20,000 nt of DNA, taken from an uncultured virus (IMG/VR IMGVR_UViG_3300020042_003594) (lineage: Duplodnaviria > Heunggongvirae > Uroviricota > Caudoviricetes). The translations under genes were made by a program, and so were the position numbers. Location of the stretch: the IMG/VR virus record IMGVR_UViG_3300020042_003594. The stretch is one strand, 5' to 3'. The notes beneath the pieces were generated by a model. It was not told the origin of the DNA, did no database searches, and worked only from the letters and a program-made list of their open reading frames with translations. Positions 10,367 to 18,610 of the stretch are shown one piece after another (the first letter of the stretch is position 1; each line of letters starts with the position of its first letter).

Positions 10367-10858
10367 TTAGGTTGTTGCCAAGCGAATTAACGCCGCTGCG
10401 GTTGTGTTGGCAGGCATCGTCAATGTAAAAGTACCAGCCGTGATGGTTTGAGAACCAAAAGTGTGTACGCTGATCGCCTTGTTGCTCTGGGTTGAGTTGT
10501 ACAACAATACAGCATCAAATGCGGTTGCCAGTGTTACAGAGGTGTAAACGATTGAAGCTGAAGGCGTGAAGAACGCCACACCAGCAGTTGCCGAAGTGTT
10601 GGTTGAAGTTGGAGCCGTAGCATTTGTTACCGTCACGCCGCCAGCGACATAGCCTGTACCAGAGACCTCATTTGAAGCTGAGTAAGCCGTGGTAGCTGCA
10701 TTGACCGTTGCCGTAGTCAAGTACAGCGCCGCTTTAAGCGTGTCTGTAGTCGGGGCGGTCAAACTGGTACGTGAAACAAGTGTTGCAGCGCCGAGTTGGT
10801 GCTCGCCAAGCATAAGCTGGCTCATAAACGAAGTGCACATTGATTGGGTGTTTGCCAT
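10367..10858 (-). CDS. Virion structural protein, paralog of 11065..11481
   Basis: 163 aa; TSF..DTLKAALY..TTAY..EVSGTGY.AGG..YNSTQSNKAI..FGS..ALIR. Confidence 0.7.
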   Translation of the reverse strand: MANTQSMCTSFMSQLMLGEHQLGAATLVSRTSLTAPTTDTLKAALYLTTATVNAATTAYSASNEVSGTGYVAGGVTVTNATAPTSTNTSATAGVAFFTPSASIVYTSVTLATAFDAVLLYNSTQSNKAISVHTFGSQTITAGTFTLTMPANTTAAALIRLATT

Positions 10859-10867
10859 GATAGTTCC

Positions 10868-11056
10868 TTAAAAAGATGCCACTGAGCTAGCGAGCGTTAC
10901 GGTTTTCTTCAAAGTAACATGCGCGGAGCGGTGGACAAGCTCTCCGTCCAACCAGTACTCAACCCACGTAGTGGTTTCGTTGTCATTATCGACTGTACCT
11001 TCCCGCTTTTCAAGCAGAGAATCGTCCATGTCGCCTTTGGTCGTGGTTACAAGCAT
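10868..11056 (-). CDS. Small conserved phage protein
   Basis: 62 aa; TTKGDMDDSLLEKREG..WVEYWLDGELVHRSAHV; TAAGGA SD. Confidence 0.7.
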   Translation of the reverse strand: MLVTTTKGDMDDSLLEKREGTVDNDNETTTWVEYWLDGELVHRSAHVTLKKTVTLASSVASF

Positions 11057-14777: not shown

Positions 14778-15098
14778 TTAGTAGGTTCTGCCGCCGGATT
14801 TCATCTTAATCATCGTGCCCTTGGTTTTACCCTTGGATGCGATGCCGTCGCGGCTGGGGGCGGCAGTCTTAACAGCGCCCATCGAGGTCATACCGCCGCC
14901 AGCCAGACCTTTGTGGGCCTTGGATGCTGGTTTGGCTGCGTGCTTGGCCAGTGCTGCGGGCATGCCGCCTTTTTTCATCTTGCCTACGCCGTCGCCAACA
15001 AAAGCGGGTTTGCCGTCTTTCATGGGCATAGCGCCGCCGCTGGCCATCATCTTGGTTTTCATTGCGCCGCCGCTGGCCATCATTTTGGATTTCATCAT
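14778..15098 (-). CDS. Met/Lys/Gly-rich protein with five [ML]xxGG motifs
   Basis: 106 aa; MASGG x2, MKKGG, LAGGG, MKSGG and RDGIASKGKTKG; AGGA SD; overlaps the upstream stop. Confidence 0.75.
   Translation of the reverse strand: MMKSKMMASGGAMKTKMMASGGAMPMKDGKPAFVGDGVGKMKKGGMPAALAKHAAKPASKAHKGLAGGGMTSMGAVKTAAPSRDGIASKGKTKGTMIKMKSGGRTY
15031..15095. repeat. 33-bp-period tandem duplication encoding MK(S/T)KMMASGGA twice
   Basis: 15031..15062 versus 15064..15095 has 2 mismatches in 32 nt. Confidence 0.85.
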
Positions 15099-15763
15099 TT
15101 TTCCTGCTCCTGATAAAGGTTGTTAAACGTCTGCTCCGCATCCATGTACGAGTCGTCTTGCTCTGCACAGTGAATCCACTGGTTTGGCCTGAAATCAGGC
15201 GCTCCCTGTCCAGTTTGCCAATAGGCTGGACTTGTTACCCGGACTCGGTTGTTGGGCAGCGCCACAACATTTCCGGTCCACTTACCTGCGTCAGTAAGTA
15301 TCAAGACATGACTTTGTTTGTGCTGTGACGGGTCTTCCGACACGTCGCTCTCAGCGTAGTCTACAGTGAACAAGTACCTGCCGGTGTGAAACTCACCGCC
15401 AATCTTGCAAAGCCAAGGAGACGGCTTGGCCCTTTCCAAACTAATAATGGTGTGGTTGTACGAGTTGCAATCCCAAGGCTGCGACAGGTGGTTGAGCATG
15501 CGCTCCGGCCATTCCTTCAAGGGAATGTCCCCCACCAACGCAGCAAGCGGCATCCTTGCCCACATTGCACCACCGTGTACGTTTTCCTCACCCTCGGCCT
15601 CAAGGCCCGTAAAAATCATCTGAAAACTCAAGCTACGGTCCGGGATGGTCGTCACTGCAACCGCCAAACCGTGAATGTACTCACCTTGGTACTTCTGGTG
15701 AGCATTCGTGAATTCTTTGCGCACCCAGCATTTGAAGTACGGGATGTTGCTTGTCAGGTACAT
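15095..15763 (-). CDS. Conserved phage protein of unknown function
   Basis: 222 aa, Trp/His-rich and globular (GGAMWARMP, QPWDC, YLFTVDY, QHKQSHVL, ALPNNR); coupled on both sides. Confidence 0.75.
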   Translation of the reverse strand: MYLTSNIPYFKCWVRKEFTNAHQKYQGEYIHGLAVAVTTIPDRSLSFQMIFTGLEAEGEENVHGGAMWARMPLAALVGDIPLKEWPERMLNHLSQPWDCNSYNHTIISLERAKPSPWLCKIGGEFHTGRYLFTVDYAESDVSEDPSQHKQSHVLILTDAGKWTGNVVALPNNRVRVTSPAYWQTGQGAPDFRPNQWIHCAEQDDSYMDAEQTFNNLYQEQEK

Positions 15764-16012: not shown

Positions 16013-16270
16013 TCAGCACTTCCATCTCTTTAGAGCCGCCGCCTTGCGGGTGGGCTGGCCTTTTTCGTCTTTCATCGGGCCGGGCATCCCTGACATCCGT
16101 GCGCAGAACGAATCCTTGCGCTTGCCGCCTTGTGGCTGCGGGGCTTTAAGGTTGCTGCCCGTAGCTGCGTTGTACTTGGCACGGCCTTTGGCAGTCAAGC
16201 CCGCCCCCTTGGAGATCGGCAGCTTTTCGCCACGACCAACCGAGAGAACCGGGCCTTTTTTCTTAGCCAT
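16013..16270 (-). CDS. Small basic protein (DUF6321-like)
   Basis: 85 aa; GLTAKGRAKYN..NLKAP..RKDSFCARMSG..ALKRWKC. The family name is from recall and unverified. Confidence 0.65.
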   Translation of the reverse strand: MAKKKGPVLSVGRGEKLPISKGAGLTAKGRAKYNAATGSNLKAPQPQGGKRKDSFCARMSGMPGPMKDEKGQPTRKAAALKRWKC

Positions 16271-16784: not shown

Positions 16785-16938
16785 GTTCTTGCTCCGGTTC
16801 TGGTGCGTCTAGCCTGTTTATGAGCATCTTGTACGCTTGGATCGTGGCTTGAGCCTGAGTCAAAAAGATTTGAGCTTTCTGCGCTTCAGTCTCAAGGTCA
16901 CGTATCTCAGATTCCAAGAATTCCTTGGTAATCTGCAT
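16768..16938 (-). CDS. Small coiled-coil protein (56 aa)
   Basis: Hand translation MQITKEFLESEIRDLETEAQKAQIFLTQAQATIQAYKMLINRLDAPEPEQEHDDAI; TAATG coupling to the upstream gene. Confidence 0.7.
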   Translation of the reverse strand: MQITKEFLESEIRDLETEAQKAQIFLTQAQATIQAYKMLINRLDAPEPEQEHDDAI

Positions 16939-17537
16939 TATGCAAAGGTCGAGTACGCAGGAACGTAGTACGCGGTGCCGCCAATCATCACTTTAATTGC
17001 TTTGGCTACAGTGGTAACACTGGTTGCCGTAGGCGCAACCGTGGCGGCAGGGCCAGTAGCAATATTGATCAGATTCTGAACTTCACCGGTCTGGGTGCCG
17101 CTATCTGTCACACGGATAAACGAGGACGTTGAGCCAAGTGTGACGTTGGTGCTGTAGTCGGTATCTAACTGAAGAACAGCCAGCGTACCGCCGGGGGTTG
17201 TTGCAGTTCCACCCAAAGTTGCACGGATTGCGTTAGCCGCACCAGAAATAGTGCCCGTGGTGTTGATTGAGGTGGAGATATGTGCGCCGTTAATTGTTCC
17301 AGCAGCGGCTGCGCCTGCGCCAGTCACAACAGAGAAAGCACGAAGCGTTTCGCCCGAACCTGTAGAAGTAAAGGTCAATCGGTTGTACGACAGGCGTGTA
17401 TCGCCAGTAGTGGCTGAAGTCGTAGCAAATGCAGCATTGACGTTTTGCGCTGTAGTTACTGAAAGAGGAGAAGCGGAAGTGCCCGTGTCAAAGCCGTTGT
17501 TAGATACGACTGGGCCGGAGAACGTGGTGGTTGCCAT
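16938..17537 (-). CDS. Putative head fibre/decoration protein
   Basis: 199 aa, Thr/Gly/Ala-rich; MATTTFSGPV N-terminus and IKVMIGGTAYYVP C-terminus; first gene after the capsid gene. Confidence 0.6.
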   Translation of the reverse strand: MATTTFSGPVVSNNGFDTGTSASPLSVTTAQNVNAAFATTSATTGDTRLSYNRLTFTSTGSGETLRAFSVVTGAGAAAAGTINGAHISTSINTTGTISGAANAIRATLGGTATTPGGTLAVLQLDTDYSTNVTLGSTSSFIRVTDSGTQTGEVQNLINIATGPAATVAPTATSVTTVAKAIKVMIGGTAYYVPAYSTFA

Positions 17538-17542
17538 GATAT

Positions 17543-17618
17543 GTTCCTTACATGCAAGTTAGGCGTATCAGTCTGCATGTCGTCAGCCGGGACTGTCTGA
17601 TACACCGGAAAGCCCGGA
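17543..17618 (-). ncRNA. Two-hairpin kissing-loop/pseudoknot RNA element downstream of the capsid gene (probably Mu-gpT-DE-like)
   Basis: CCGGG/CCCGG stem, ACATGCA/TGCATGT stem and 10-bp loop-loop complementarity GGTGTATCAG/CTGATACGCC; ends at the AAGGA SD. The position matches that described for the Mu-gpT-DE motif; no covariance search was run. Confidence 0.7.
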
Positions 17619-17626
17619 ATGTCTGC

Positions 17627-17655
17627 AATATACACCAAAAGAAAAGGGGGCACAA
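17627..17655 (-). promoter_or_regulatory. Possible sigma70-type promoter overlapping the terminator
   Basis: TTGTGC-17 nt-TATATT; +1 would fall just before the RNA element. Confidence 0.4.
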
Positions 17656-17663
17656 GGCCCCCT
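17636..17663 (-). terminator. Rho-independent terminator after the major capsid gene
   Basis: AGGGGGC-CTTGT-GCCCCCT followed by TTTCTTTT, about 15 nt after the MCP stop. Confidence 0.85.
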
Positions 17664-17677
17664 CTCCCATAGTTCCC

Positions 17678-18610
17678 TTACGCGGCGCCGGGTGATCCGA
17701 AGATGCCCAGTGGGTCAGAGAAGCCAAAGCTGTAACGCTCACGGGCTTTGTAACGGACGTTGCCGGTGTCGAAATCACCATCCATGGAGGTCGTCATCGC
17801 AGCACGCTCGAAGTGCTTCAAACCGTTAGGAACGTCTGTGGTCAAGAACCAAGCATTCGGATCGGTCAGATAGTGGTTCACGGTGTAACCAGCAGAGATG
17901 GTGCCCATTGACTTCAACGCGTTGATGTCGTTGTCAGCGGTAGCAACACGCAGTTCGGTGTCCAGCAAACGCTTTGCCACGAACATCAAATTTGGTGGGA
18001 TCACCAGTTTGACGGGCTTGGAAGCGATCAACAGACCACGCTCATCCACCCAAGCAGCGATCTGAATGGTTGCGGCTTCCAAAGAAGTCTCATTCAAATC
18101 AGAGGGTGTAGATGGGGTGTTGTTGTTTACACCGCCGCCAACCAGCGGATGACCGACCAAGACGGCAGAAGCGTTGTAGCCGAACAGAGACACGCCGTCA
18201 CCGCCGAGGGCAGTACCGGAGAAACCTGTATTCAGAACAGCAGCAGCTTTGACCTGCTTGGTGTAAGCCATACCGCGAGCCAGAGCCTTGGTGTAACGGG
18301 CAGACAAACTGTCGTACAGATTGTCTTCCACTGCTTCTTCAGTGATGGAGAAGCCCAGAGCAATGGTCTCGTGGGTGTAGCGTGCAGTAAAGGCTTCCTG
18401 CGCATTGTCAAAAGCGATGGCAGAGCCCTCGTTCTTAACAGGTGCAGCGCCAAAACCGGACAGCTTGGTCTCTTCTTCGAACGAACGCTCAGAAGATTCT
18501 GTTTCGTACAGTTCTTTGTGCTCTTCGCCGTAGCGAGCGTACTCCAAACCAAACAGTGCGTTCAAACCCGGGAGGAGTTCTTTAAGTAGTTGTGCGCGTG
18601 AAATTGCCAT
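17678..18610 (-). CDS. Major capsid protein (Mu gpT-like, HK97 fold)
   Basis: 310 aa; MAISRAQLLKELLPGLNALFG..SFEEE..GFG.APVKNEG..ARYTHETIALGFSITEEA..RERYSFG.SDP; AAGGAG SD; followed by a terminator. Confidence 0.9.
   Translation of the reverse strand: MAISRAQLLKELLPGLNALFGLEYARYGEEHKELYETESSERSFEEETKLSGFGAAPVKNEGSAIAFDNAQEAFTARYTHETIALGFSITEEAVEDNLYDSLSARYTKALARGMAYTKQVKAAAVLNTGFSGTALGGDGVSLFGYNASAVLVGHPLVGGGVNNNTPSTPSDLNETSLEAATIQIAAWVDERGLLIASKPVKLVIPPNLMFVAKRLLDTELRVATADNDINALKSMGTISAGYTVNHYLTDPNAWFLTTDVPNGLKHFERAAMTTSMDGDFDTGNVRYKARERYSFGFSDPLGIFGSPGAA

What the first reader, a model, noticed from the sequence alone, without database searches (positions are those of the whole stretch)
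17543..17618. Kissing-loop RNA between the capsid terminator and the ribosome-binding site of the next head gene
Seen: minus-strand hairpin 1 (CCGGG 17617-17613 / CCCGG 17591-17587) and hairpin 2 (ACATGCA 17580-17574 / TGCATGT 17556-17550) are joined by a short CTGACG linker. Their loops carry a 10-bp complementary pair (GGTGTATCAG 17606-17597 / CTGATACGCC 17571-17562, one G-U). The last stem ends exactly at the AAGGA SD of the 199-aa gene. Known: a motif of unknown function, Mu-gpT-DE, was described downstream of Mu gpT-like capsid genes in metagenomes. Inference: a translational switch or protein-binding RNA setting the decoration-to-capsid ratio, or a structural small RNA; loop-loop pairing could also occur between molecules, as in phi29 pRNA.
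Basis: partly seen in the sequence, partly recalled or inferred. Interest (0 to 1): 0.8.

Follow-up and report, generated by a model that had tools for sequence, protein, structure and literature searches.

The report
Kissing-hairpin mRNA leader after phage capsid gene
A folded RNA of about 80 bases, two hairpins whose loops pair with each other, starts the messenger of the gene after the major capsid gene in a large group of lake and ocean phages; no RNA catalogue lists it and its role is not yet known.

Summary
The three helices are real. In 73 distinct relatives, 88% of pair cells are standard pairs, against 28-46% when partners are slid. 19 of 22 pairs change on both sides, including 9 of 10 in the loop-loop helix. 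A second set agrees.

The motif occurs once in the window and in 76 of 80 related phage loci. It is also found in Pelagibacter phage HTVC023P.

It is not the tail of the capsid transcript. A conserved sigma-70-type -10 box ends 6-12 nt before hairpin 1, so the fold should begin within about 3 nt of the 5' end of a new transcript. It ends at the Shine-Dalgarno sequence. It stays with the downstream gene when nuclease genes are inserted after the capsid gene.

That gene encodes a protein with a conserved 16-residue N-terminus and at least 14 unrelated C-terminal types. It is probably a capsid decoration or cement protein.

Rfam 15 has no match, and Mu-gpT-DE (RF03012) fails.

My best reading is a cis-acting 5' leader that sets mRNA stability and ribosome access. 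A protein-bound operator, a riboswitch or an RNase III site are not excluded. No start site or function was measured.

The parts
17678..18610 (-). major capsid protein gene (310 aa), the upstream neighbour
   Evidence: PHROG phrog_371 major head protein, E 2.7e-18. Pfam Phage_capsid_4 50.3 bits and Mu-like_gpT 23.3 bits.
17636..17668 (-). intrinsic terminator of the capsid transcript (12-pair stem, loop CCTTGTG, then TTTTCTTTT)
   Evidence: Strongest terminator-like site in the 20-kb window. A terminator precedes the motif in most relatives.
17650..17655 (-). weak -35-like hexamer TTGTGC inside the terminator loop and 3' stem, 17 nt before the -10 box
   Evidence: Sequence. TTGTGC is the commonest -35 candidate, in 20 of the 60 loci that have a good -10. 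It matches TTGACA at only 3 of 6 positions. Inference.
17627..17632 (-). -10 box TATATT of the promoter for the leader
   Evidence: 60 of 75 relatives have a -10 (at least 4 of 6, with A2 and T6) ending 6-12 nt before H1, against 7 of 300 control positions. Loci with an inserted ORF carry full TTGACA-16/17-TAnAAn promoters.
17620..17620 (-). predicted transcription start (7 nt after the -10 box), 3 nt before H1
   Evidence: Inference from the usual -10 to +1 spacing. Not mapped.
17535..17619 (-). whole motif as matched by the covariance model (leader through the start codon)
   Evidence: 90.7 bits, E 3.4e-27. The next best hit in the window scores 7.0 bits.
17613..17617 (-). H1 5' arm CCGGG
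   Evidence: 4 of 5 pairs change on both sides (CCGGG, CTAGG, CTGGG, CTCGG and CCAAG types).
17587..17591 (-). H1 3' arm CCCGG
17597..17606 (-). loop-loop helix P3, 5' arm GGTGTATCAG, in the H1 loop
   Evidence: 9 of 10 and 8 of 10 pairs change on both sides. Median contiguous length is 10 bp.
17562..17571 (-). loop-loop helix P3, 3' arm CTGATACGCC, in the H2 loop
17581..17586 (-). conserved linker CTGACG (consensus GC-W-GAC)
   Evidence: The linker C34 and A37 are invariant columns; its G36 and C38 are nearly invariant. Median linker length is 6 nt.
17592..17596 (-). conserved unpaired ACAGT after P3 (part of GAC-W-G)
   Evidence: A24 and G27 are invariant, C25 nearly so.
17574..17580 (-). 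H2 5' arm ACATGCA
   Evidence: 6 of 7 pairs change on both sides. The innermost pair is not conserved.
17550..17556 (-). H2 3' arm TGCATGT
17545..17549 (-). Shine-Dalgarno AAGGA, directly after H2
   Evidence: The distance from the H2 end to the ATG has a median of 11 nt in 74 relatives.
16938..17537 (-). downstream gene (199 aa), probable capsid decoration or cement protein with conserved N-terminus MAxTTFSGPV
   Evidence: The homologous position in phage DSL-LC04 is annotated 'cement protein'. No Pfam, PHROG or PDB match.

Best explanation
The element is the structured 5' leader of the mRNA for the gene after the major capsid gene. That gene probably encodes a fast-evolving capsid decoration or cement protein.

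Shown:
- Two hairpins (H1 about 5-6 bp, H2 about 6 bp) and a roughly 10-bp helix between their loops are all maintained by compensatory changes, on the sense strand.
- The fold ends at or overlaps the Shine-Dalgarno sequence.
- The motif stays with the downstream gene when other genes are inserted after the capsid gene.

Inferred from conserved promoter boxes:
- The capsid transcript stops at its terminator.
- A sigma-70-type promoter restarts transcription so that H1 begins 0-3 nt from the new 5' end.

Inferred mechanism:
- As the RNA emerges, H1 forms first.
- The 3' arm of the loop-loop helix then pairs into the H1 loop, and H2 closes last.
- The cap acts in cis. It shields the 5' end from 5'-end-dependent decay and fixes the geometry and accessibility of the adjacent ribosome-binding site.
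- The result is a set, high output of a virion protein needed in many copies, whichever C-terminal module the gene carries.
For: Structure: (covariation against shuffled and slid controls). The loop-loop helix was not in the model used to align. G-U outnumbers A-C 74 to 11 in that helix.

One copy per genome, on the capsid strand.

Promoter: 60 of 75 relatives have a -10 box ending 6-12 nt (mode 8-10) before H1, against 7 of 300 control positions. Loci with an inserted ORF show full TTGACA-16/17-TAnAAn promoters directly before H1. The same layout of terminator, TATAAT, 7 nt, H1 is seen in Pelagibacter phage HTVC023P.

Link to the downstream gene: in 57 of 74 loci the motif starts 29-185 nt after the capsid stop. 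In 17 of 74 an inserted ORF lies between them (gap 696-1292 nt), and the motif with its promoter still abuts the MAxTTFSGPV gene.

SD adjacency: the distance from the H2 end to the ATG has a median of 11 nt. The SD overlaps the H2 3' arm in several lineages.

No terminator follows H2.

Metatranscriptome contigs of 4 runs from 4 studies contain the region. This shows presence only.
Against: - No transcription start, half-life or translation measurement exists.
- In the window itself the -35 is poor (TTGTGC). The simple sigma-70 scan did not call a promoter here.
- Two RNA-library contigs run from the capsid gene's 3' end through the motif. Read-through transcripts, or DNA in those libraries, may therefore also carry it.
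- One relative (L036) has no recognisable -10.
- A plain 5' stabiliser would need only H1. The conserved loop-loop helix and the invariant or nearly invariant unpaired bases (GAC-W-G, GC-W-GAC, GA) suggest a specific 3D fold or a partner that this reading does not name.
- Modelled SD accessibility does not change with the fold: 0.52 against 0.56, p = 0.06.
- The SD position relative to H2 varies from inside the helix to about 6 nt away.
Confidence: 0.5

Rival explanations
1. Protein-bound translational operator. The kissing fold is recognised by a phage protein, either the decoration/cement protein itself or free capsid protein. The bound protein blocks or traps the 30S subunit at the adjacent SD. 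Synthesis is thereby tied to the pool of unassembled protein. This resembles S15 on the rpsO pseudoknot or gp32 on its leader pseudoknot.
For: Unpaired bases at the junctions are conserved. The SD abuts or overlaps H2. As nested alternatives, the two-hairpin form and the long-range helix are nearly isoenergetic in the window, -13.0 against -13.4 kcal/mol, as in the rpsO double-hairpin/pseudoknot operator (abstract of PMC3985624, listing). The T4 gene 32 precedent is quoted in PMC10690425 (passage).
Against: The C-terminal parts of the downstream proteins fall into 14 unrelated clusters while the RNA core stays the same. If the gene product is the binder, only the shared 16-residue N-terminus could do it. 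No RNA-binding domain was found in any neighbour. The energy balance between the two forms is not kept across relatives: the difference has sd 7 kcal/mol, on a noisy alignment.
Confidence: 0.2
2. Riboswitch-like sensor. The kissing fold forms a pocket for a small ligand or ion, and binding stabilises H2 and so reduces access to the SD.
For: The junction nucleotides are conserved, the fold is a compact pseudoknot, and the SD lies at or partly inside a helix of the fold. Translational riboswitches often hold the SD in a pseudoknot helix (recalled).
Against: No match to any of the 4227 Rfam families. The downstream gene is a structural gene with no metabolic link. In the commonest type the SD is outside the fold. 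The conserved bases relax in the AT-rich pelagiphage copies.
Confidence: 0.07
3. RNase III (or other double-strand nuclease) processing site. H1, the loop-loop helix and H2 stacked end to end give about 22 bp of near-continuous duplex. Cleavage there would create the mature 5' end of the decoration-gene mRNA.
For: The helices sum to about 21-22 bp. H2 continues into the loop-loop helix with only 1-3 unpaired bases between them. RNase III cuts kissing antisense complexes and T7 intergenic hairpins (recalled).
Against: The element has its own promoter right at its 5' edge, so no processing is needed to make an end. There is no sequence evidence for a cleavage site.
Confidence: 0.07
4. Processive antitermination RNA, like HK022 put or a nut site. 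The nascent two-hairpin RNA stays with RNA polymerase, alone or with a phage factor, and lets it read through the late genes.
For: Two hairpins lie directly after a promoter at the head of a long same-strand gene block.
Against: No strong terminator-like site is predicted downstream in the window. The tight, conserved contact with the SD is unexplained. put RNA has no loop-loop helix (recalled).
Confidence: 0.04
5. Trans-acting or multimerising RNA. The two complementary loops pair between molecules, hand in hand as in phi29 pRNA, to build an RNA assembly used in head assembly or packaging.
For: The two loops carry 10 complementary bases. A 10-bp intramolecular kissing helix is sterically tight, with 4-6 nt linkers.
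Against: There is no terminator or defined 3' end, and the RNA runs into the SD and ORF. Both arms sit on one molecule about 25 nt apart, which favours pairing within the molecule. No link to terminase or portal genes was seen.
Confidence: 0.03

Closest known systems
Mu-gpT-DE motif (Rfam RF03012)
   Same: The capsid protein here also scores as Mu gpT-like.
   Different: The covariance model does not match. It is not among the E<=10 hits on 17300-17900. 0 of 5 related phage records score over its 49-bit cut-off; the best is 12.4 bits, and no hit lies at the motif. The model has 53 positions, against 84 here.
E. coli rpsO (ribosomal protein S15) translational operator
   Same: It is a leader that can form either two hairpins or a pseudoknot next to the ribosome-binding site (abstract of PMC3985624, seen in the listing).
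   Different: There is no sequence relation and no known binding protein here. Here all three helices covary and can in principle coexist as a kissing complex, and the fold sits at the very 5' end.
Phage T4 gene 32 leader pseudoknot
   Same: It is a phage mRNA with a pseudoknot at the 5' side of the leader, used for autogenous translational control (passage of PMC10690425).
   Different: The T4 element is a small H-type pseudoknot followed by an unstructured A/U-rich tract. No such tract, and no ssDNA-binding protein gene, is present here.
5'-terminal stem-loop mRNA stabilisers (for example the E. coli ompA leader; recalled, not checked here)
   Same: A hairpin lies within a few nucleotides of the 5' end of a highly expressed mRNA.
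   Different: Those need only one hairpin. Here a second hairpin, a 10-bp loop-loop helix and conserved junction bases are also kept.
phi29 pRNA (recalled)
   Same: A phage RNA with two complementary loops.
   Different: pRNA is a stand-alone RNA of about 120-174 nt whose 4-nt loops pair between molecules at the packaging motor. This element is an mRNA leader with a 10-bp complement.
Kissing-loop leaders before decoration genes in marine T4-like phages
   Same: According to those notes, they share the genomic position (after the capsid gene, before a decoration-like gene), have two loops that pair, and are absent from Rfam.
   Different: They come from other phage lineages and are longer (about 105-120 nt).

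Membership tests
Mu-gpT-DE (RF03012) | Match to the Rfam covariance model at or above its gathering score (49 bits) | tested here: not met
   not among the 8 hits at E<=10 on 17300-17900; 0 of 5 related records over the cut-off; the best is 12.4 bits, and no hit lies at the motif (motif place in G005).
Mu-gpT-DE (RF03012) | Lies downstream of a Mu gpT-like major head gene | tested here: met
   PF10124 Mu-like_gpT at 23.3 bits (cut-off 20.1) on the 310-aa protein whose stop lies 58 nt (17677-17620) before the model's match to the motif (17619-17535).
Any Rfam 15 family (4227 models) | Match at the gathering score | tested here: not met
   0 matches in the window and 0 in 20 related loci, 96,469 bases.
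Intramolecular kissing hairpins / double pseudoknot | Two hairpins plus a helix between their loops, each kept by compensatory changes | tested here: met
   H1 4 of 5, loop-loop helix 9 of 10, H2 6 of 7 pairs changed on both sides; 3 of 5, 8 of 10, 6 of 7.
Intramolecular kissing hairpins / double pseudoknot | All three helices form at the same time in one molecule | not testable with these tools
   Covariation fits coexistence or alternation equally. Linker lengths (medians 6, 5, 3 and 5 nt) are tight but plausible. Probing or a solved structure is needed.
5'-terminal mRNA stabiliser | Stem-loop within about 0-4 nt of the transcript's 5' end | tested here: inconclusive
   The -10 box ends 6-12 nt before H1 in 60 of 75 relatives, which predicts a 0-3 nt overhang. 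No 5' end was mapped, and RNA contigs cannot show ends.
Riboswitch | Expression platform: a terminator, or an SD held in a helix of the fold | tested here: inconclusive
   No terminator follows H2. The SD is outside H2 in the window but inside or overlapping the H2 3' arm in some lineages.
Riboswitch | Specific ligand binding | not testable with these tools
   In-line probing is needed.
Intrinsic terminator | G+C-rich hairpin followed by a run of U | tested here: not met
   H1 is followed by CUGACG and H2 by AAGGAAC. The real terminator is the separate hairpin at 17668-17640.
phi29 pRNA-like packaging RNA | Stand-alone small RNA with defined ends | tested here: not met
   The motif runs without a terminator into the SD and a 199-codon ORF.
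put/nut-type antitermination RNA | Terminators downstream in the same transcription unit that must be read through | tested here: inconclusive
   The consensus scan finds only weak terminator-like sites downstream on the minus strand. No transcription assay was possible.

The most novel reading that the evidence does not exclude
The kissing-hairpin leader is an assembly-feedback operator. Free decoration or capsid protein, through the only part all versions share (the 16-residue N-terminus) or through the capsid protein, recognises the three-helix fold and its GAC-bearing junctions. Binding throttles translation, so decoration protein is made in step with capsids. Together with the earlier notes of similar leaders in T4-like marine phages, this would define a recurrent, possibly convergent class of 'kissing-loop leaders of capsid-decoration genes' across unrelated phage lineages.
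Probability: 0.18. Interest if true: 0.8.

Novelty: new member of a known kind. Interest (0 to 1): 0.62.

Why it matters
The motif is one of the better supported unannotated phage RNA structures.
- All three helices covary.
- It is present in at least 120 IMG/VR contigs for one sequence subtype alone.
- It lies beside a capsid gene family with at least 598 hits.
- It occurs in phages whose records name the SAR11 bacterium Pelagibacter as host.

It also shows a clear gene-expression layout: terminator, then promoter, then a structured 5' end, then the SD. That layout sits in front of a virion-surface protein whose body is swapped freely while the promoter, the leader and the first 16 codons are kept.

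If the fold controls stability or translation, it is a compact, portable expression element from abundant aquatic phages. If it binds a protein or ligand, it would be a new regulatory RNA class linking capsid assembly to gene expression. A 10-bp loop-loop helix inside one small RNA is also of structural interest.

Tried and rejected
- **Nested MFE folding of 151 nt.** z = -1.23. It cannot represent the pseudoknot and is not informative.
- **Hammerhead-like core.** The linker CUGACGA resembles CUGANGA by eye. Rejected: most relatives have CAGAC, and no ribozyme family matches.
- **Upstream ORF in the leader.** The AUG in H2 is not conserved (ACAUAC, UAGUAG and AUGCAA types), and the changes are compensatory, not codon-like.
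- **Fold of the 199-aa protein.** The AlphaFold2 model from a 17-row alignment had mean pLDDT 45.1 and was unusable, so no fold search was run. PDB sequence search gave nothing below E 0.8. In the ESM Atlas the nearest named cluster is Phage_cement_2 at 0.78, a lead only. tblastn against GenBank phages gave no match.
- **Balance of two conformers as a sign of a switch.** The difference has sd 7.0 kcal/mol, and 23 of 72 rows fall within 2 kcal/mol. The column-based energies are noisy, so this is inconclusive.
- **SD-opening or 'insulator' effect.** Modelled unpaired probability of -13..+3 is 0.52 without the fold and 0.56 with it (30 higher, 23 lower of 67; p = 0.06). No support either way.
- **Expression data.** All 24 RNA runs found hold only small shares (at most 0.14) and are kept as contigs. 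Laying 4 of them shows relatives of the region in RNA libraries but no ends, strand or level. Uncovered or low-depth bins are not evidence.
- **Host from genomes.** The core pattern hits at least 120 stretches in bacterial and archaeal genomes. Only 2 of the 80 fetched are strong model matches, plus 2 weak ones at 19 bits. The two strong ones are a contig in a Verrucomicrobia MAG and a contig of a Gammaproteobacteria assembly, and may be phage contigs binned with those genomes. No host was inferred.
- **Prior description.** See the searches named in the full report. The catalogue of over 10,000 unnamed viral RNA candidates (PMC10690425) could not be checked. Six contig numbers were absent from the text that could be searched, but supplement files 1, 2 and 4 could not be read.
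- **blastn of the leader against GenBank phages.** No match.
- **Weak model hit inside G002 (16.6-16.7 bits).** It lies in apparent coding sequence with mispaired stems and is treated as false.
Full report
**The observation**

- The 310-aa capsid gene stops at 17680-17678.
- A strong terminator follows: stem 17668-17640, then a U-run. It is the best terminator-like site in the window.
- H1 is CCGGG 17617-13 paired with CCCGG 17591-87.
- The linker is CTGACG.
- H2 is ACATGCA 17580-74 paired with TGCATGT 17556-50.
- The loop arms are GGTGTATCAG 17606-17597 and CTGATACGCC 17571-62.
- Then come AAGGA 17549-45 and ATG 17537-35.

For this single sequence, 2 of 3000 shuffles of the 83-nt leader give the same architecture with a loop-loop helix of at least 9 bp. 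Ordinary nested folding is blind to the structure (z = -1.23).

**Relatives and covariation**

The capsid protein has very many relatives in IMG/VR. The 220 nt after the capsid stop already showed the same two hairpins, with different letters in all three helices.

I aligned 45 instances (A1) and built a covariance model on H1+H2 only (R1).
- In the window it hits once, at 17535-17619 minus, with 90.7 bits. The next best hit scores 7.0 bits.
- In the loci it hits 74 of 80, once each, always on the capsid-gene strand.
- Of the six misses, L046 and L077 carry divergent copies. They score 14.5 and 16.9 bits, and all three helices are visible in the sequence.
- L028, L040 and L056 end 696, 405 and 238 nt after the capsid stop, inside an inserted ORF.
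- L070 has no copy within 2.5 kb.
- So 76 of 80 loci have the motif, 3 cannot be judged, and 1 lacks it.

On the model-made alignment (73 distinct rows) I counted the three helices, with the loop-loop helix written as a pseudoknot.
- 88.0% of 1541 cells are standard pairs, against 28.3-45.8% when the 3' partners are slid by 1-3 columns.
- 19 of 22 pairs change on both sides.
- The covariation score is 0.590, against at most 0.127 for slid partners. 0 of 500 shuffles reach it.
- By helix: H1 is 89.9% paired (4 of 5 pairs with double changes), the loop-loop helix 89.9% (9 of 10), and H2 84.1% (6 of 7).
- The innermost H2 pair is not conserved.

The loop-loop helix was not part of the model, so its support does not come from fitting. 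A second set gives the same picture: 92.2% paired, 17 of 22 pairs, and 94.6% in the loop-loop helix. It was fetched by a 16-base core pattern plus a few GenBank and MAG copies, has 75 distinct rows, and partly overlaps the first set.

In the loop-loop helix G-U outnumbers A-C 74 to 11, which fits an RNA of the gene strand. In H1/H2 the count is 7 to 27, but there most non-pairs are alignment shifts and the non-conserved innermost pair.

A per-sequence parse of 74 instances gives these medians: H1 5.5 bp, H2 6 bp, loop-loop helix 10 bp, linker 6 nt, H2 end to ATG 11 nt. A handful of divergent rows were mis-parsed.

**What surrounds it**

The 60 nt before each copy show a sigma-70-type promoter.
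- 60 of 75 copies have a -10 hexamer (at least 4 of 6 matches, with A2 and T6; TATATT in 41) ending 6-12 nt before H1. The counts by distance are 5, 8, 15, 14, 13, 4 and 1.
- Only 7 of 300 control positions inside the preceding genes have one.
- Thirteen more copies carry TATAAA, TACAAA or similar hexamers that my strict rule excluded (by eye). L036 has none.
- Where an ORF is inserted after the capsid gene, the motif is preceded by full promoters such as TTGACA-17-TACAAA (L004, L025, L044, L066 and L073).

In the window the -10 is TATATT at 17632-17627. A usual start 7 nt later (about 17620) leaves 3 nt before H1. The window's -35 is only TTGTGC (17655-17650), inside the terminator loop, and the simple promoter scan did not call this site. 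The start site is therefore an inference, not an observation.

The motif belongs to the downstream gene.
- In 57 of 74 loci it begins 29-185 nt after the capsid stop.
- In 17 of 74 the gap is 696-1292 nt and holds an extra ORF. These include GIY-YIG and endonuclease VII nucleases and a methyltransferase; several have no Pfam match.
- Even then the promoter and motif still sit directly before a gene that starts MAxTTFSGPVxSxNGF.

The 67 downstream proteins of at least 60 aa share only that N-terminus. From residue 23 onward they fall into 14 clusters, with lengths of 62-248 aa. 57 of the 58 scanned have no Pfam match; the other has only matches below Pfam's cut-offs. The window's 199-aa protein has 3631 metagenomic homologs, all unnamed, and no PHROG, Pfam or PDB match. 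Its AlphaFold model was unusable (pLDDT 45).

In the metagenome-assembled phage DSL-LC04 (title of PMC10611076, listing), the motif scores 42.8 bits and precedes the gene its authors annotate as 'cement protein'. I therefore call the gene a probable decoration or cement protein, from position and that annotation only.

**Range**

Among GenBank phages with a related capsid protein (19 records), I fetched the region around the capsid gene in 8 records and scanned it.
- Pelagibacter phage HTVC023P has a clear copy: 50.1 bits, E 3.6e-14, directly between capsid gp40 and gp41. The layout is terminator, TATAAT, 7 nt, H1.
- HTVC027P scores 11.1 bits. Its loop arms UACAUAG/CUAUGUA are visible, and the copy lies before gp62.
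- Phage 023Pt_psg01 has arms UAAAUAUAA/UUAUAUUUA by eye. The model missed it.
- Both of those carry AT-rich versions in which the SD (AGGAG) overlaps the H2 3' arm.
- No copy was found in Pag-Yong1, CRP-902 or Caulobacter phage GB2A. Alcaligenes phage QDWS535 gave only a 9.7-bit hit.

Four (near-)complete related genomes each have one copy; a second, 16.7-bit match in G002 lies in apparent coding sequence and was set aside. One sequence subtype alone occurs in at least 120 IMG/VR contigs, and 78 of the 80 fetched match the model, 77 of them at 44 bits or more.

**Comparison with known families**

Rfam 15 gives no match at gathering score in the window or in 20 loci. At E<=10 on 17300-17900 the 8 hits are noise. 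The best is a 19.9-bit match of the terminator to ctRNA_p42d. The only hit on the motif is a 15.6-bit CRISPR-repeat match on the other strand.

Mu-gpT-DE (RF03012; accession from a passage of PMC7657543) scores at most 12.4 bits in 5 related records, and never at the motif. The element is thus not Mu-gpT-DE, although the capsid protein is weakly Mu gpT-like.

**Literature**

Full-text searches returned no description of this element (titles and abstract starts of the listings only):
- 'Mu-gpT-DE';
- major capsid protein + bacteriophage + kissing loop + translational;
- structured RNA + bacteriophage + covariation + novel RNA motifs + metagenom;
- capsid decoration + phage + pseudoknot + untranslated region + translational repression;
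- 'DSL-LC04'.

The IMG/VR-based catalogue of more than 10,000 unnamed candidates (PMC10690425; passages, one supplement sheet head and two searches seen) may contain it. Its alignment files could not be read, so I cannot say.

Two earlier notes of this scan report kissing-loop leaders before decoration-like genes in marine T4-like phages. I could not compare sequences with them.

**How it most likely works**

Shown: a three-helix RNA on the sense strand, one per genome, tied to the downstream gene and ending at its SD.

Inferred: it is the first structure of a transcript that starts 0-3 nt before H1.

My preferred mechanism (about 0.5) is a constitutive cis-acting leader. The capsid mRNA ends in a stable terminator hairpin, and transcription restarts at once. 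The new mRNA is capped by a compact kissing-hairpin fold. That fold protects the 5' end from 5'-end-dependent decay and holds the ribosome-binding site in a fixed context, whatever C-terminal module follows.

Three points argue that this is not the whole story:
- A stabiliser needs only one hairpin.
- Junction bases are invariant or nearly so: GAC-W-G after the 5' arm, GC-W-GAC in the linker, and GA before the 3' arm.
- The SD ranges from 6 nt beyond H2 to inside it.

These features fit a partner or a specific tertiary fold. The main rival (about 0.2) is therefore a protein-bound operator of the rpsO or gene-32 kind. A riboswitch, an RNase III site, a put/nut-like antiterminator and a pRNA-like multimer follow at lower odds.

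In the window the two-hairpin form (-13.0 kcal/mol) and the long-range helix alone (-13.4) are isoenergetic as nested alternatives. A switch between forms cannot be excluded. The balance is not kept across relatives, on a noisy measure, and modelled SD accessibility is unchanged by the fold.

**Expression data**

RNA-library contigs of 4 runs from 4 studies contain relatives of the motif. Two contigs bridge the capsid gene's 3' end and the motif. Contigs give no ends, strand or level.

**Verdict**

It is a new RNA family of a known general kind, a structured cis-acting leader of a phage late gene, with an unusual long intramolecular loop-loop helix. Its function is open and is directly testable in HTVC023P or with reporter constructs.

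Noticed in passing
L004, L014, L022, L025, L029, L034, L041, L044, L048, L060-L062, L066, L073, L074, L081, L082 (between the capsid stop and the motif): The junction after the capsid gene is an insertion hot spot. 17 of 74 loci carry an extra ORF there. Those with a Pfam match over its cut-off are a GIY-YIG nuclease (L004), an endonuclease VII (L044) and a methyltransferase (L062); L022 and L081 have only sub-threshold LEM-3-like GIY-YIG matches, and several others have no Pfam match. Caulobacter phage GB2A has an annotated homing endonuclease at the same place.
   Followed up: partly
window 17650-17655 (minus) and the matching place in relatives: When the terminator directly abuts the promoter, its loop reads CCTTGTGCC. 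This puts TTGTGC exactly 17 nt before the -10 box, so terminator and promoter may overlap. Loci with a CTTCGG-type terminator loop instead have a separate TTGCGT or TTGCAT -35 further downstream.
   Followed up: partly
window 16938-17537 (minus) and downstream genes of L003-L082: The gene after the motif is modular. Its first 16 or so residues, MAxTTFSGPVxSxNGF, are conserved, and its C-terminal bodies fall into 14 unrelated clusters of 62-248 aa. The promoter, the leader and the first codons look like a conserved cassette in front of swappable domains.
   Followed up: partly
L088 3903-4010 (Planktothrix phage Pag-Yong1, between the major and 'minor capsid protein' genes): There is no model match. 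The gap holds two G+C-rich hairpins (CCGAGCCC/GGGCTCGG and GACCCGGGG/CCCCGGGTC) whose loops share a 5-bp complement (GACGG/CCGTC), and the first loop contains GACTGAC. It may be a reshaped relative. This was seen by eye only, with no variation available to test it.
   Followed up: no
window 10850-10872 (minus); G001:7746-7769: A second gene start reuses nearly the same ribosome-binding region, TAAGGAACTATCATGGCAAAC, without the leader.
   Followed up: no
L265 (contig in a Verrucomicrobia MAG, 40.8 kb) and L289 (contig of a Gammaproteobacteria assembly, 12.1 kb): Two contigs filed under bacterial genomes carry strong copies of the motif (75.6 and 68.9 bits). They are probably phage contigs binned or co-assembled with those genomes and give no reliable host signal.
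   Followed up: partly
window 15095-15763 (minus) and 16013-16270 (minus): A 222-aa protein matches PHROG 3704, annotated ferredoxin and classed as a moron or auxiliary metabolic gene (E 9e-31). An 85-aa protein matches DUF6321 (83 bits). Both lie downstream in the same gene block.
   Followed up: no
L338 3865-4164 (Alcaligenes phage vB_Af_QDWS535): A 300-nt unannotated gap two genes after the capsid gene holds a weak model hit (9.7 bits) with the GCAGACG linker but no clear loop-loop helix.
   Followed up: no
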